Assembly (NCBI GenBank): GCA_016839555.1
Contig: JAEOUA010000009.1
Span: 61,221-125,220 of the forward strand
DNA from: Promethearchaeota archaeon
GTDB taxonomy: Archaea; Asgardarchaeota; Lokiarchaeia; Sigyniarchaeales; SOKP01
Direction: 5' to 3'
Length of the DNA stretch: 64,000 nucleotides
Positions 9,371 through 23,586 of this stretch are shown here, one piece after another (position 1 is the stretch's first letter; the number at the start of each line of letters is the position of its first letter). The notes below the pieces were generated by a model, which ran no database searches, was not told the DNA's origin, and saw only the letters and a list, made by a program, of their open reading frames with translations. The position numbers and the translations under genes are program-made.

Positions 9371-11533
9371 ATGCTAAATCGCGATATATCGTATTTTTTT
9401 GACCCAAAAAGTATTGCAGTAATCGGAGCAAGCAACAAAGAAGGAAAAGTTGGTCATACGGTATTCAAGAATATAATTAATTCTAAATTTAAATATAAAA
9501 AGCAAATATATCCCATAAACCCAAATTATGAGGAAATCTTAGGATATAAAGCATATGAAAGCGTTTTAGATGTACCTAATGAAATCGACATTGCGATTTT
9601 TGTTATTCCTGGTAAATATGTTGTGCCTATAGCTGAAGAATGCGGAAAAAAAGGGATTAAAGGATTAATTGTAATTTCTGCGGGATTTAAGGAAATCGGT
9701 AGCGAAGGGGCAGAAAGAGAGGAGGAGCTGAAGGAAGTAGCTAATAAATATAGTATGCGCGTTTTGGGACCGAATTGTTTAGGAATAATTGGGTTGAATT
9801 ATAATGGCTCTTTTACTATTGATACCCCAAAAAAGGGGAATATAGCAATGATATCTCAATCTGGGGCAATGCTAGTGGGATTAATAGATATTTCAATGAA
9901 CGAAAGTTATGGCTTTTGTTGTAATATTAGCTTAGGTAATAAGGCAGATTTAAGTGCTGTAGATTTTATTGAATATTTAGCCGATGATGAGGATGCTAAG
10001 GTGATCTTATGTTATTTAGAAAGTATTAAAGATGGTAAACGATTTTTAGAGGTTGTACCTAAAACAGCAAGAAAAAAACCCATTGTTATTTTAAAGGCGG
10101 GTGTAAGTCAAGCTGGTGCAAGAGCCGCATCAAGCCATACTGGAGCATTAGCAGGTTCAGATAAAGCTTACGACTTAGCTTTTGAGAAATGTGGGGTTAT
10201 TAGAGCGCATACTATTGAAGATTTATTTGATTATGGAGAAATTTTTCTTTTTCAACCAATACCTCAAAAAAATTCTTTTGCAATTATCACTAATGCTGGT
10301 GGACCAGGAATTGTAGCTACTGATGCGTTTTCGAACGAAGATTTAAAATTTGCAGAATTTTCCGAGAGAATTTTACATGATTTGCGAGAACATTTACCTC
10401 AAGAGGCCGCAATATTTAATCCCATTGATATTGTTGGTGACGCTCCTCCAGAAAGATATGAATTTACACTAAAGACTGTTTTTGGAATTAATAGTAAGGT
10501 CGAAAAAAATCTGGGAAATCAAATTAATACTTATGGAGCTTTAGTAATTTTGACTCCACAAGCTCAAACAAAGCCAACACAAGTAGCAAAAATCATTAAA
10601 AATATTTCCCATACGTATTTGAAAGATAAGCCTCTTATTTGTTCTTTTATAGGCGATAAGTCAATTGCGGAGGGAAGAAAATACTTAAAAGACAATAAAA
10701 TACCTTGTTATCAATTTCCTGATAGAGGCGCTCGCTCGTTAAAAACATTACTTAAAAGGAGAGCATTTTTGGAAGAACTGCCTCTGGAAGAGCGCACATT
10801 TCCAGACTTCGAAGTAAACAAAACAAGAGTACTTGAAATAATTGAAGAAGCGAGAAATGATGGGCGAAAGGTTTTATTAGGAATAGAAACTGCGGAAATT
10901 TTTAAATGTTACGGAATTCAATCTCCAAAATCGAAATTAGTATATACTCCGAAAGAAGCCATGGATACTCAACCACAAATAGGGAAAACTATTATGAAAA
11001 TTGTGAGTCCTCAGATTATTCACAAAACTGATATTGGAGGAATTGTAATGAACATAGAAACTCCCGAACAAGCATTTGAAGCCTATATCCAAATAGTAGA
11101 CAATGTCAAAAAATTCGGTCCTCAAAATGCTAAAATCTATGGAGTAGAACTTCAAGAAATGATCAACTTTGATGAAAAAGAAAAAGTAAATGAATTAATT
11201 TTGGGAATGTCTCAAGATCCCCAATTTGGACCTATGTTAATGTTTGGTGCTGGAGGGATCTATGCAAATTATCTGAAAGATGTTTCCTTTATGCTCTCTT
11301 ATAAATTTACCGAAGATGATGCAAGAAAAATGCTTCAAGAAACGAAAATATACAGAATTCTCCAAGGAGTGAGAGGTGAGCCATCGTCGGATATTGAGGC
11401 CGTAATAGAAGTCTTACAGCGGCTTTCTAAATTAGTCAATGATATTCCAGATATTGTTGAATTAGATATCAATCCTTTAGTGGTTTTCGTTAAAGGTTAT
11501 TCTGCTTTGGATATAAAAATTACAATAAAATGA
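9371..11533 (+). CDS. ADP-forming acetate/acyl-CoA ligase, fused alpha-beta
   Basis: SIAVIGAS, GPNCLG, SQSG, SHTGALAG (phospho-His), NPIDI, then the ATP-grasp HKTDIGG and LDINP motifs. Confidence 0.92.
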   Translation: MLNRDISYFFDPKSIAVIGASNKEGKVGHTVFKNIINSKFKYKKQIYPINPNYEEILGYKAYESVLDVPNEIDIAIFVIPGKYVVPIAEECGKKGIKGLIVISAGFKEIGSEGAEREEELKEVANKYSMRVLGPNCLGIIGLNYNGSFTIDTPKKGNIAMISQSGAMLVGLIDISMNESYGFCCNISLGNKADLSAVDFIEYLADDEDAKVILCYLESIKDGKRFLEVVPKTARKKPIVILKAGVSQAGARAASSHTGALAGSDKAYDLAFEKCGVIRAHTIEDLFDYGEIFLFQPIPQKNSFAIITNAGGPGIVATDAFSNEDLKFAEFSERILHDLREHLPQEAAIFNPIDIVGDAPPERYEFTLKTVFGINSKVEKNLGNQINTYGALVILTPQAQTKPTQVAKIIKNISHTYLKDKPLICSFIGDKSIAEGRKYLKDNKIPCYQFPDRGARSLKTLLKRRAFLEELPLEERTFPDFEVNKTRVLEIIEEARNDGRKVLLGIETAEIFKCYGIQSPKSKLVYTPKEAMDTQPQIGKTIMKIVSPQIIHKTDIGGIVMNIETPEQAFEAYIQIVDNVKKFGPQNAKIYGVELQEMINFDEKEKVNELILGMSQDPQFGPMLMFGAGGIYANYLKDVSFMLSYKFTEDDARKMLQETKIYRILQGVRGEPSSDIEAVIEVLQRLSKLVNDIPDIVELDINPLVVFVKGYSALDIKITIK

Positions 11534-11619
11534 AGATTAACATAAAATAGAAAAATAAAATAATAAAAAATTCAAAAAAATATTATAAATTATAGTATTA
11601 CATTATAAAGAGGATCAAA

Positions 11620-12684
11620 ATGGTAAAAGGAATCTATTTATGTTCATTAGAAGAACGTGTCGGAAAGACTTTATTATCAATTGGGATTATCAAAAAATTA
11701 CAAAACGAAGGAAAAAAAGTGGGATATTATAAACCCATTGGAACTCCAAAAGCACCTTTTTCAAATAAGGCAGATCCAGACGTGGGGTTTCTGCAAAGTT
11801 GTGTGGAAATTGCAGAAATTCCGTATGATATTTTGTCGCCAGTATCCATTCCCGATTGTTATTATGTAGATTTAATCACTGCCGATAAAAAGGAAATATT
11901 TCGAAAGAATATTAAAAAAGCATATCAAAAGGTCTCTCAAGAATATGACTATATCATAATTGAAGGATCTCAGAGCATAAAGAAATATATTCGAGTAGGA
12001 GTAGATGATGTGAGTATTGCTCAAGTACTTGGTATTAATGAATTGGTCTATATTGAGACAGAATCTTCAGATAAGTGTATAGATAATATCTTTTTTACTA
12101 AAAAATATTTTGATTATAGGAATATAAATATTAAGGGGATTATTTTCAATAAAATTGATTTTGATTATTTTCCGAGGATAAATGAGTTAAAAGAACAACA
12201 TATCATCAGATATAATATTCCTATTATTGGAATTATCGAGAAAACTCTTGAATTATTATCTCCTAGAGTCGCTGAAATTAAAGAAGTAATAGGAGGGAAT
12301 TTATTAAATGAAGCTACTTCTGATGCTCTTAGTAACTTAGTGGAAACATACTTAATTGGGGCGATGGGGCCTCAAGCTGCCTTAAAATACCTTAGACAGG
12401 TTAAAAATGCCGCTTTTATCACAGGGGGAGATCGAACGGATTTAGCAATGGCTGCCCTCAACGAAAATGTGTCTGTATTGATTTTAACGGGGTTTATAAG
12501 ACCGGATACCTCTGTTATAACAAAAGCAAATCAAAAAAATATCCCAATTCTATTATCACCGTCAGATACTTATACCACTTTAATGAATATGGAAAAAGTT
12601 AAACCCGGTATTCAAGAAGAGGAAATAAGCTTAGTTTTAAAGTTAGTAGAGGAAAACCTTGATTGGGATGTGCTTTTAAAATAA
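11620..12684 (+). CDS. Phosphotransacetylase N-terminal-like protein (BioD-like P-loop plus DRTGG domain)
   Basis: GKT, GYYKPIG, IIEG, ITGGDRTD and LILTG motifs. No Pta catalytic domain. Confidence 0.88.
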   Translation: MVKGIYLCSLEERVGKTLLSIGIIKKLQNEGKKVGYYKPIGTPKAPFSNKADPDVGFLQSCVEIAEIPYDILSPVSIPDCYYVDLITADKKEIFRKNIKKAYQKVSQEYDYIIIEGSQSIKKYIRVGVDDVSIAQVLGINELVYIETESSDKCIDNIFFTKKYFDYRNINIKGIIFNKIDFDYFPRINELKEQHIIRYNIPIIGIIEKTLELLSPRVAEIKEVIGGNLLNEATSDALSNLVETYLIGAMGPQAALKYLRQVKNAAFITGGDRTDLAMAALNENVSVLILTGFIRPDTSVITKANQKNIPILLSPSDTYTTLMNMEKVKPGIQEEEISLVLKLVEENLDWDVLLK

Positions 12685-15394: not shown

Positions 15395-15507
15395 GGTTTT
15401 TATACCTAATTTAGCTTTTAAAAGATATACACTAAATTAATATTAAAAAAATAAGAAAAAACTATCTGTGGTATAATTTTAGAAGATCGAGATAAATAAA
15501 TAAAAAT

Positions 15508-15805
15508 TGTAGCCTAAAGCACTAACGCTTTTTTTTCATTTTTTGGATTTATCCATAAAATCTAAAAAGTTCTCTCGTGTTAGGCATTTTGGGGTAAACA
15601 TAATCATATATCCTGCCTGGGTTGCTGACTCAAAGCTCATCGCATCGGTATCCACCTTTGCTCAATTAAGAGCCCATTTATACAGGATTTTTCATGTTAT
15701 TGATTATTTGATTCAGAATGTATGCAGTTGGTTTGCACTTCATACTCATCTTTTAATCGTATGAGCCCTCGAAACGCAAGTATTCCTTCATCATCAATAC
15801 CCCAA
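15508..15805 (-). ncRNA. Multi-hairpin H/ACA pseudouridylation guide RNA with K-turns and C/D boxes
   Basis: Three stem-pocket-stem-K-turn hairpins, each followed by ACA or AUA at 15, 14 and 16 nt from the pocket top. Pockets are complementary to conserved 23S rRNA sequence. TATA-like box about 25 nt upstream and a T-rich tract directly after the last ACA. Confidence 0.8.
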
Positions 15806-15964
15806 TTAAATTAAGTTAATACAAAGTTAAAAATATTTGTCTCATAATGTAAAATTAACAAGATTATTGATCTTTTTCAACATGAATTAGAAGAAGCACC
15901 TAATTTTACAAAGAGGAATCAATAAATCATATTACAATAATAAATATTACTTTCATAGTTTAAT

Positions 15965-16312
15965 CTACTTCGGCATATAAAATTTACATACAGTACATTG
16001 GTAAGCTCTTAATCTCCTATCGGTTCCTAATATTATTAGTTTCTCCTTAAGAGATGAGCCACATTTCGGACATGTCTTAGTGAAGTTTTCCCTTATTGAA
16101 TTAAGGACTTTTTGGATACCATCCTCTACTCTTAAGATTTCTTTGGCATTATCGATGATTTTATTAGCAGATATAATCCCAATACCCTTGATCCAAGCTA
16201 ATTCCTCAGGTTTTGAATTTGCGATCTCCTCAATAGTCTTAATACCCGCTTTATGAAATCGTTCTGCTGATTTTGGACCTATACCCTTTACGCGAGAAAT
16301 TTCCTTGGACAT
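15965..16312 (-). CDS. Helix-hairpin-helix protein with C-terminal zinc ribbon
   Basis: VKGIGPKSA and IKGIGIISA HhH motifs, then CPKC...CTVC. Confidence 0.8.
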   Translation of the reverse strand: MSKEISRVKGIGPKSAERFHKAGIKTIEEIANSKPEELAWIKGIGIISANKIIDNAKEILRVEDGIQKVLNSIRENFTKTCPKCGSSLKEKLIILGTDRRLRAYQCTVCKFYMPK

Positions 16313-22053: not shown

Positions 22054-23586
22054 CAGTAACAAAGTAAGTAGATCTTATTAATTCCAATAAATTGGGATTG
22101 TTGCTATCTAAACCTTCTTTTTATTAATCAATTGTGAATATTACTTTTATTTATTTCCATATTTCAGAGTAAAACCATAAAATTAATAAGAAAGAAGTGA
22201 TAATATTTATGTATGCTCGTACAAAAAATATTTCCTACTTCTTTTCAGAATTTAGGAATCAAATCACTTCTTTCTAATGATAGTATCACCGCATTTTTTA
22301 AAAAGTTTTGTACTGCAGTTATTTCTCGCATGTGGAAGTTCAAAAGGGGAAAAAATTCTCGATATGAAGAGCAAGATTTTCTCAAGGTATTTTTTCTCTC
22401 TGAATTATTAGGTAGATCTATTCATGAGACCAGCGAGCTACTGAATGCTTATTTATTAAGTAAGCGGCGGGGAAGACCGAAAATATTCATGGATGGAAGA
22501 AGAAAGCGTCAAATTCCGCATCAAACAGAAGTAAACAAATACCTCCGCAAGATTGGACTAAAAAAAGCTCAGAATATTTTGCGTGAATGTTTGGATGAGC
22601 AGCTTTTAGAGGCTTTAGACCGGGGGCTCATCTCAAAAAAAGTGAATGTGCTTATTGACTTTACAGAGCATCCCTATTTTGGAAAAAGGGATGATGCTAT
22701 GATTAAGGGAACAAATCGGCAAAAAGGAACGAAGAAAATGCGCCATTATCTCGGCTTCTCGATTTTATCTCGAGGGACTCATCTGTATGTAGGATTAAAG
22801 CAAGTGGCAACAGGACAATCTAAAATACCAATTATATTGAAAACACTTACACATTTGCTTGATCTGGGATTTAAATTAGGAAAAGTGATGATGGATAGAG
22901 AATTCTATAGAGCAGAGTTATTAGACCGAATAAAGGGAATGGGGGGCGAGGTAATTGTTCCTGCAAAGAAGTATAAAAAAATTAAACAATATCTTGTAGA
23001 TTATTTTAAGGGAACGCATGGTAGAGTGCGTAAATACACCTTTTCTAGCAAATTGGGTGCGGAATGCCGATATTCGCAACATGTTTATGTGATAATAAAA
23101 GCAAAAAACCAGTTTACTCTTCAAGGTGTCAAAAGAGCGTATAGAGCGGGAAAAATATCCTTAGACGATGCTCGGAAGCGTTTATTCCTTATCATGACTA
23201 CTGAGAAACCAAGGGGTAAGACCAGCTCATGGACATCCCGCACAGCATTATTTTATCGTCGGCGGTGGTTAATAGAGACGGGGTTTTCCGACTTAAATCG
23301 AATTAATCGTCGTTGGAGATCGAACTGTGATAACGTACGGTATTTGGATATGCTGGTAAGGCTTCTGCTTTATAATTCGTGGAAGATGAATAAGAAAATG
23401 CTTCAAAAAACGAACAGAAAAGAAGGAAGGAAGATAGCATGGACACTAAATCGAAATCAAGATGTTCTACTAAATTATTTGCTCCCTCATTAAAAAAAAT
23501 CATGAGGCATTCTGGCTCAATATATTTTTATGTCGGAGCTAGTCAATATAGAAAAAGAATAAAAAAAAATAAATACTTAGATACTC
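22054..23586 (+). mobile_element. Insertion sequence, ISH3/IS4-like
   Basis: Imperfect terminal inverted repeats: CAGTAACAAAGTA at the left and the reverse complement of the right end GAGTATCTAAGTA (10/13 match). A-tracts on both flanks. Encloses a DDE transposase. Confidence 0.7.
22213..23493 (+). CDS. DDE transposase (ISH3/IS4-like)
   Basis: VLIDFT, MMDREF and YRRRWLIETGF (Y-R-E signature). Very basic protein and higher GC than the flanks. Confidence 0.9.
   Translation: MLVQKIFPTSFQNLGIKSLLSNDSITAFFKKFCTAVISRMWKFKRGKNSRYEEQDFLKVFFLSELLGRSIHETSELLNAYLLSKRRGRPKIFMDGRRKRQIPHQTEVNKYLRKIGLKKAQNILRECLDEQLLEALDRGLISKKVNVLIDFTEHPYFGKRDDAMIKGTNRQKGTKKMRHYLGFSILSRGTHLYVGLKQVATGQSKIPIILKTLTHLLDLGFKLGKVMMDREFYRAELLDRIKGMGGEVIVPAKKYKKIKQYLVDYFKGTHGRVRKYTFSSKLGAECRYSQHVYVIIKAKNQFTLQGVKRAYRAGKISLDDARKRLFLIMTTEKPRGKTSSWTSRTALFYRRRWLIETGFSDLNRINRRWRSNCDNVRYLDMLVRLLLYNSWKMNKKMLQKTNRKEGRKIAWTLNRNQDVLLNYLLPH

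What the first reader, a model, noticed from the sequence alone, without database searches (positions are those of the whole stretch)
15508..15805. Unannotated ~300-nt three-hairpin H/ACA guide RNA, a snoRNA-like molecule in a probable Asgard archaeon
Seen on the minus strand: a TATA-like box (15827-15835), then three hairpins, each with lower stem, internal pocket, upper stem and a GA/GA K-turn or K-loop with a 3-nt bulge (GAU, GAU, AAU). They are followed by ACA (15721-15719), AUA (15611-15609) and ACA (15510-15508) at 15, 14 and 16 nt from the pocket top. A T-tract follows. Hairpins 1 and 2 are enclosed by an 8-bp stem UUGGGGUA/UACCCCAA (15805-15798 with 15596-15589). Established: K-turn-capped hairpins with an ANA box 14-16 nt from the target U define archaeal Cbf5/Nop10/Gar1/L7Ae guides. 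Inference: an independently transcribed multi-guide rRNA pseudouridylation RNA. I am not aware of a description in Asgard archaea but cannot check.
Basis: partly seen in the sequence, partly recalled or inferred. Interest (0 to 1): 0.92.

Follow-up and report, generated by a model that had tools for sequence, protein, structure and literature searches.

The report
Asgard three-hairpin pseudouridine guide RNA
This gap between two genes holds a real, conserved RNA gene of about 300 bases that most likely tells the cell's pseudouridine-making enzyme which uridines of the large ribosomal RNA to modify; it is the Asgard version of a guide RNA already known from Pyrococcus, Archaeoglobus and Haloferax, with extra folding elements added.

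Summary
The RNA is real: minus strand, about 15803-15503, single copy, with a conserved TATA box. It occurs in 28 of 29 sampled same-family genomes and 11 other families of the phylum; 39 of 76 pairs show compensatory changes. Distant homologs found with my model match Rfam HgcG/Pab40 (RF00064; best E 1e-11, below cut-off), so this is a diverged Pab40/Pf7/Afu4/sR-h45 ortholog, not a new class. Pockets fit a same-genus 23S (own 23S unassembled) at U2496, U2554 or U2586, and U1915/1917 (E. coli numbers); two guide-rRNA co-changes support 1915/1917 and 2586. Cbf5, Nop10, Gar1 and L7Ae are encoded. Differences from Pab40: each motif sits inside an outer stem, a fourth K-turn closes hairpin 1, and hairpin 2 seems shifted towards the A-loop (yeast Psi2923). 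No modification or transcript was shown for this organism. I found no Asgard description in the papers searched; this scan found the same family on other DNA at least six times.

The parts
15827..15835 (-). TATA box (T-run plus AA at -30 to -24 from the first G), preceded by an A-rich BRE-like stretch
   Evidence: T in 25-28 of 29 homologs at -30, -29, -28 and -26; A in 29 of 29 at -33
15503..15805 (-). Whole H/ACA guide RNA (ends inferred: 5' near 15805-15803, 3' in the U-tract after the last ACA)
   Evidence: Conservation stops at these limits; model R1 hit 15492-15803, 264 bits; one copy in the genome
15798..15805 (-). 5' arm of closing stem P0 (three-way junction holding motifs 1 and 2)
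   Evidence: GGG/CCC core 90% paired (helix 1)
15784..15797 (-). 5' arm of extra (fourth) K-turn below hairpin 1, box-C-like
   Evidence: Arm geometry in 28 of 28 homologs; all 4 C-stem pairs covary (helix 2)
15719..15779 (-). Motif 1: K-loop hairpin, 5' guide 15772-15767, 3' guide 15736-15730, ACA 15721-15719; predicted target 23S U2496 (yeast Psi2865)
   Evidence: GA stem 10, spacing 15; rank 1 of 1074 U; 7 of 300 shuffled guides score as well
15708..15718 (-). 3' arm of the extra K-turn, box-D-like, directly after ACA 1
   Evidence: geometry 28 of 28, exact CUGA 17 of 28
15701..15707 (-). 5' arm of outer stem around motif 2 (pairs with 15606-15600)
   Evidence: 96.5% paired (helix 7); 27 of 28 homologs
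15607..15688 (-). Motif 2: K-turn hairpin, 5' guide 15678-15672, 3' guides 15627-15624 (A-loop) and 15623-15617 (U2586), box AUA 15609-15607
   Evidence: Lower stem covaries in 6 of 7 pairs (helix 8); U2554 rank 1, 2 of 300 shuffles; U2586 rank 1, 11 of 300
15600..15606 (-). 3' arm of outer stem around motif 2
   Evidence: helices 6-7
15589..15596 (-). 3' arm of closing stem P0
15508..15585 (-). Motif 3: K-turn hairpin, 5' guide 15576-15572, 3' guide 15526-15521, ACA 15510-15508; predicted targets 23S U1915 and U1917 in helix 69 (yeast Psi2258/2260)
   Evidence: Rank 1 in both registers but not beyond shuffles (214 and 41 of 300); guide and 23S change together in family f9; homolog of Pf7 stem III
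15500..15507 (-). U-rich tail; can pair with 15590-15586 as a 5-bp A-U remnant of the outer stem that most homologs have around motif 3
   Evidence: Outer stem 3 present in 21 of 28 homologs; both arms lost together in the other 7, including this one

Best explanation
The locus encodes a stand-alone box H/ACA guide RNA of about 300 nt, the Asgard ortholog of HgcG/Pab40/Pf7/Afu4. It is transcribed from its own TATA promoter (inferred). Each hairpin binds L7Ae at its K-loop or K-turn and Cbf5 at its lower stem and ANA box, with Nop10 and Gar1 (established for the family, inferred here). The two sides of each pocket pair with pre-23S rRNA and present a uridine to Cbf5: motif 1 U2496; motif 3 U1915 and probably U1917 in helix 69; motif 2 the A-loop U2554 and/or the ancestral U2586. 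For motif 2 in this organism my odds are roughly 45% both sites, 30% U2554 only, 25% U2585/2586 only. The added outer stems and fourth K-turn most likely are a scaffold: they bind one more L7Ae and pair the RNA's ends to protect them. Shown: sequence, conservation, covarying structure, homology, complementarity, protein genes. Inferred: transcription in this organism, protein binding, pseudouridine formation, role of the scaffold.
For: Covariation. Phylum-wide single-copy conservation, 57 of 151 genomes, 28 of 29 in the family. Homologs match RF00064 over the full model, E 1e-11 to 1e-3 for six of 20 loci. Same motif order and targets as Pab40/Pf7/Afu4 (PMC2377435) and Haloferax hairpins for Psi1915/1917 and Psi2586 (PMC2584109; shown experimentally in PMC7075261). 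All pockets rank first among 1074 uridines. Two guide-rRNA co-changes, the helix 69 one predicted before I fetched the rRNA. Cbf5, Nop10, Gar1 and L7Ae-family genes above cut-off. Fixed TATA position. Weak: metatranscriptome contigs of relatives of a sister-family ortholog cover only the RNA, and two studies end at the same base.
Against: Own 23S is not assembled; pairings use a same-genus 23S and same-family 16S. The window's RNA itself gives no Rfam hit, and all homolog scores (17-52 bits) are under the gathering score of 77. Guide limits were chosen by hand after seeing the sites, so the shuffle counts are optimistic; motif 3 alone is not beyond chance. For U2554 the spacing to the box is 18 nt, outside the usual 14-16 (17-19 can work when the ACA box is present, PMC7075261). 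No transcript or pseudouridine data for this organism.
Confidence: 0.92

Rival explanations
1. Composite C/D plus H/ACA RNA (scaRNA-like): the fourth K-turn is a working C/D motif that recruits Nop5 and fibrillarin and guides a 2'-O-methylation, besides the H/ACA function.
For: In the window the arms read as box C and box D; box-C-like in 20 of 28 and exact CUGA in 17 of 28 homologs. Pab21 is a known C/D-H/ACA chimera (PMC2377435).
Against: The bases 5' of the D-like box are the ACA box and the variable, paired lower stem of hairpin 1, so no guide is free; no complement of 8 nt or more to 16S/23S lies there. What is kept in 28 of 28 is K-turn geometry, not the box sequences. I saw no C'/D' pair.
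Confidence: 0.07
2. U3-like or snR30-like chaperone: the RNA pairs with pre-rRNA to guide folding or processing instead of modifying it.
For: 15617-15610 is complementary to own 16S nt 13-20, part of the central pseudoknot. Motif 2 can pair with both strands of helix 92, as a chaperone might.
Against: That 8-mer is the 3' strand of the covarying lower stem of hairpin 2 and is kept in only 2 of 28 homologs. The conserved pairings flank single uridines at known pseudouridine sites with Cbf5 geometry.
Confidence: 0.04
3. Not an RNA gene: a small protein gene on the plus strand (73 codons, 15543-15764) or a leader of the downstream gene.
For: An ORF exists; the RNA ends about 110 nt before a same-strand gene.
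Against: Homologs have indels of any length and compensatory stem changes. Neither flanking gene was found beside any of 35 homologous loci checked, so the element travels with its promoter, not with a gene.
Confidence: 0.01

Closest known systems
HgcG / Pab40 / Pf7 / Pho40 / Afu4 three-motif H/ACA sRNA (Rfam RF00064; PMC2377435)
   Same: Three motifs in the same order; K-loop in motif 1 and K-turn in motif 3 (PMC4652768 supplement); near-identical guide words in the Rfam consensus. Motif 1 target P. abyssi 2588 = E. coli 2496 (my mapping by spacing of yeast sites). Motif 3 target 2016 in helix 69. Motif 2 proposed for 2647 (A-loop) or 2678 (E. coli 2586).
   Different: 35% GC and too diverged to hit RF00064 directly. 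Each motif sits in an outer stem, with a fourth K-turn and a closing three-way junction; the Rfam consensus has the motifs directly abutting. Motif 2's 5' guide fits the A-loop perfectly and U2586 only partly.
Haloferax volcanii sR-h45 (PMC7075261; PMC2584109)
   Same: Its two hairpins are homologs of Pf7 stems II and III and were shown to make Psi at E. coli 2586 and 1915 plus 1917, the sites predicted for motifs 2 and 3.
   Different: Lacks motif 1; a 56-nt spacer between hairpins; no A-loop target reported.
Yeast snR46, snR10, snR191 (PMC5699541)
   Same: They modify the equivalent sites Psi2865, Psi2923 and Psi2258/2260.
   Different: Separate two-hairpin snoRNAs with an H box and Nhp2, no K-turns. 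No sequence homology was tested; shared sites do not show shared descent.

Membership tests
Archaeal box H/ACA guide sRNA | Lower stem, internal pocket, upper stem | tested here: met
   All three hairpins, with covariation
Archaeal box H/ACA guide sRNA | K-turn or K-loop about 10 bp above the pocket | tested here: met
   GA stem of 10 in motifs 1 and 3, about 10-11 in motif 2; UGA invariant
Archaeal box H/ACA guide sRNA | ANA box after each lower stem | tested here: met
   Both A's invariant or nearly so for each box in 20 homologs
Archaeal box H/ACA guide sRNA | 14-16 nt from target U to ANA box | tested here: met
   15 (U2496), 16/14 (U1915/U1917), 14 (U2586); the U2554 register is 18, atypical
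Archaeal box H/ACA guide sRNA | Bipartite pairing to the organism's rRNA around an unpaired U | tested here: met
   Met on same-genus 23S and by guide-rRNA co-change; own 23S not assembled
Archaeal box H/ACA guide sRNA | Cbf5, Nop10, Gar1, L7Ae encoded | tested here: met
Archaeal box H/ACA guide sRNA | Expressed as a discrete RNA | tested here: inconclusive
   Only RNA contigs of relatives of a sister-family ortholog; contigs cannot show strand or ends
Archaeal box H/ACA guide sRNA | Directs pseudouridine formation in an RNP | not testable with these tools
   Needs Psi mapping or reconstitution
HgcG/Pab40 (RF00064) | Rfam score above gathering (77 bits) | tested here: not met
   No hit for the window; best homolog 51.9 bits. 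Not a formal Rfam member; filed as a diverged ortholog
HgcG/Pab40 (RF00064) | Significant full-length homology | tested here: met
   Transitive: model R1 finds distant homologs (E 1e-6 to 1e-24), which hit RF00064 positions 1-276 at E down to 1e-11
HgcG/Pab40 (RF00064) | Three motifs in order, aimed at 2496, 2586/A-loop, helix 69 | tested here: met
Box C/D methylation guide | Free 10-12 nt guide 5' of box D complementary to rRNA | tested here: not met
   Position is taken by ACA box and paired stem; no complement
U3-like RNA | Conserved complementarity to the 5' end of SSU rRNA | tested here: not met
   2 of 28 homologs

The most novel reading that the evidence does not exclude
The Asgard form is a mechanistically distinct H/ACA RNA: its ACA boxes work from inside internal loops of a scaffold closed by a fourth L7Ae-binding (possibly Nop5-binding) K-turn, and in this order motif 2 has become a dual or retargeted guide making Psi2554 in the A-loop. 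One archaeal RNA would then place up to four pseudouridines that yeast makes with snR46, snR10 and snR191, and guide retargeting could be followed step by step across living lineages.
Probability: 0.3. Interest if true: 0.6.

Novelty: new variant of a known kind. Interest (0 to 1): 0.4.

Why it matters
It supplies an unannotated RNA partner for the Cbf5 machinery of Asgard archaea and makes testable predictions of pseudouridines at the peptidyl-transferase centre, A-loop and helix 69; orthologs exist in two single-contig genomes of the same order (G038, G179), which by size I recall as the cultured Promethearchaeum and Lokiarchaeum strains (from memory, unverified). It extends the Pab40 family to a phylum where Rfam misses it. 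The enclosed ACA boxes, extra K-turn and graded retargeting of motif 2 are of real but specialist interest. That Asgard archaea have H/ACA guides is expected, not surprising.

Tried and rejected
Rfam scans of the window and of one close homolog: no meaningful hit. RF00064 search of 25 genomes: nothing over cut-off, but no control genome passed the cut-off either, so that negative is weak. No own 23S; one large 23S search failed. R1 genome searches score only part of the candidates and missed orthologs later found by BLAST (G038, G032, G025), so the 94 genomes without a hit do not show absence. Sigma-70 promoter/terminator scan is not suited to archaea and gave nothing. First descriptor too strict; the only other cluster (C11:224965-225165) lies inside a gene's 3' end. 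The outer-stem-3 count was faulty and is replaced. Culture transcriptome X1 gives one long contig over the whole region, which may be DNA, so it is uninformative. RNase P and SRP identity were considered and dropped (no Rfam match). The original Afu4/Pf7 paper could not be retrieved, so I could not check whether the A-loop pseudouridine proposed for Afu4 was ever mapped. Literature searches found no Asgard H/ACA RNA; most subscription journals are not covered.

Full report
Setting. The window is G000:C9 of a 3.7-Mb genome whose closest named relatives are Promethearchaeota MAGs. The feature lies on the minus strand between a helix-hairpin-helix protein gene (16312-15965) and an unassigned 311-aa gene (15394-14459). 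Neither neighbour was found beside the homologous loci checked.

Observation. BLAST finds one copy in 19 of 24 same-family genomes at 67-79% identity over most of its length, with conservation limited to the RNA. On 20 homologs, 89.8% of cells of a 76-pair structure pair, against 32-45% when slid; 39 pairs change on both sides; 0 of 500 shuffles reach this. RNAalifold, given no structure, recovers the three hairpins and the closing stem. A TATA box sits at -30 to -24 in the homologs. A loose descriptor finds a single three-motif cluster in the genome, this one.

Anatomy. Motif 1 is a K-loop hairpin with a GA stem of 10 and ACA at 15 nt. Motifs 2 and 3 are K-turn hairpins. A fourth K-turn closes below hairpin 1, just after its ACA (geometry in 28 of 28 homologs). 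A 7-bp stem encloses motif 2 (27 of 28). A GGG/CCC stem joins both into a three-way junction. A GC-containing stem encloses motif 3 in 21 of 28; in the other 7, including this genome, both arms are lost together.

Targets. The own 23S is not assembled, so I used the 23S of same-genus G004 and the 16S of same-family G013. Scoring every uridine (1074), each pocket's best site was: motif 1, U2496; motif 2, U2554 with the upper 3' guide or U2586 with the lower one; motif 3, U1915 or U1917 in two registers. Shuffled guides matched these scores in 7, 2, 11, 214 and 41 of 300 trials; guide limits were hand-chosen, and motif 3 is not significant alone. Independent support came from co-change. Family f9 has a motif 3 guide GAGAC instead of GAGAG; I predicted GUCUC in its helix 69 and found it in all three genomes with a 23S. 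The same family pairs AACGG with CCGUU after U2586, where G042 pairs GACGG with CCGUC. Each is one evolutionary event. E. coli and yeast numbering follows PMC2584109, PMC11077068 and PMC5699541: 2496, 2554 and 1915/1917 are yeast Psi2865, Psi2923 and Psi2258/2260.

Motif 2. Distant Asgard homologs fit U2586, as do Haloferax SL1 and the site predicted for Afu4/Pf7. In this order the 3' side has gained CAG, which pairs 5' of U2554. In this family 22 of 28 also carry AAUGGGC, a perfect 7-bp match 3' of it, and 16 of those have lost the AACCC register; all 5 with the older UACGGGC keep AACCC. G030 has lost the 2586 guide and reads as a canonical U2554 guide with GA stem 10 and spacing 15. The window's RNA keeps both registers. 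A shift or dual use is therefore likely but inferred; an A-loop target was also once proposed for Afu4, so it may not be Asgard-specific.

Homology. Model R1 found hits in 57 of 151 genomes of the phylum and 12 families, nearly all single and full-length. Eight of 20 distant homologs match Rfam RF00064 HgcG/Pab40 over positions 1-276, six at E of 1e-3 or better (best 1e-11), all below the gathering score. Pab40, Pf7 and Afu4 have three motifs aimed at P. abyssi 2588, 2647 or 2678, and 2016; by the spacing of the yeast-conserved sites these map to 2496, the A-loop or 2586, and helix 69 (my inference). The homologs closest to RF00064 (family f7) lack the outer stems, like the Rfam consensus.

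Machinery and expression. Cbf5 (424 bits), Nop10, Gar1 and two L7Ae-family genes are present. For the ortholog in G038, metatranscriptome contigs from three studies cover only the RNA; one 321-nt contig spans it end to end, and two end at the last base of outer stem 3. The runs were chosen for holding the stretch and contigs show no strand, so this is a weak hint and concerns another family.

Rivals. C/D guide, U3-like chaperone and protein gene were tested and fail their defining features.

Verdict. A real H/ACA guide and a diverged Pab40/HgcG ortholog with an added scaffold: a new variant of a known kind. No Asgard description was found in the searchable literature. Earlier notes of this scan reach the same family assignment on other genomes; I had reached it before reading them and do not count them as evidence.

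Noticed in passing
L097:344-646 (G030, family f2): Motif 2 has lost the U2586 guide and is a canonical guide for A-loop U2554 (GA stem 10, spacing 15).
   Followed up: partly
L110, L113-L117 (family f2): In these orthologs the third ACA box is degenerate (first A missing) while the outer stem around motif 3 is strong; the stem may stand in for the box or motif 3 may work without it.
   Followed up: no
L106-L108 (family f7): Homologs lack the outer stems, score best to RF00064, have a different motif 3 pocket, and lie next to a tRNA gene; their helix 69 did not match my pattern.
   Followed up: no
L016 and L017 (G010, G021): A 10-nt insertion in the 3' strand of the motif 3 lower stem, presumably looped out to keep the spacing to ACA.
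   Followed up: no
L063 (G138:C17:42365-42476): A second, partial match to model R1 about 500 nt from the full copy, possibly a duplicated hairpin.
   Followed up: no
window 15965-16312 (-): 115-aa protein with tandem helix-hairpin-helix motifs and a C-terminal CxxC...CxxC zinc ribbon, just upstream of the RNA's promoter; not linked to the RNA in relatives.
   Followed up: partly
window 9371-12684 (+): ADP-forming acyl-CoA synthetase with fused subunits (Pfam), followed by a 354-aa gene that reads like a phosphotransacetylase N-terminal (DRTGG-type) protein (by eye, not tested).
   Followed up: no
window 22213-23493 (+): 426-aa ORF with higher GC that reads like a DDE transposase (by eye, not tested).
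   Followed up: no
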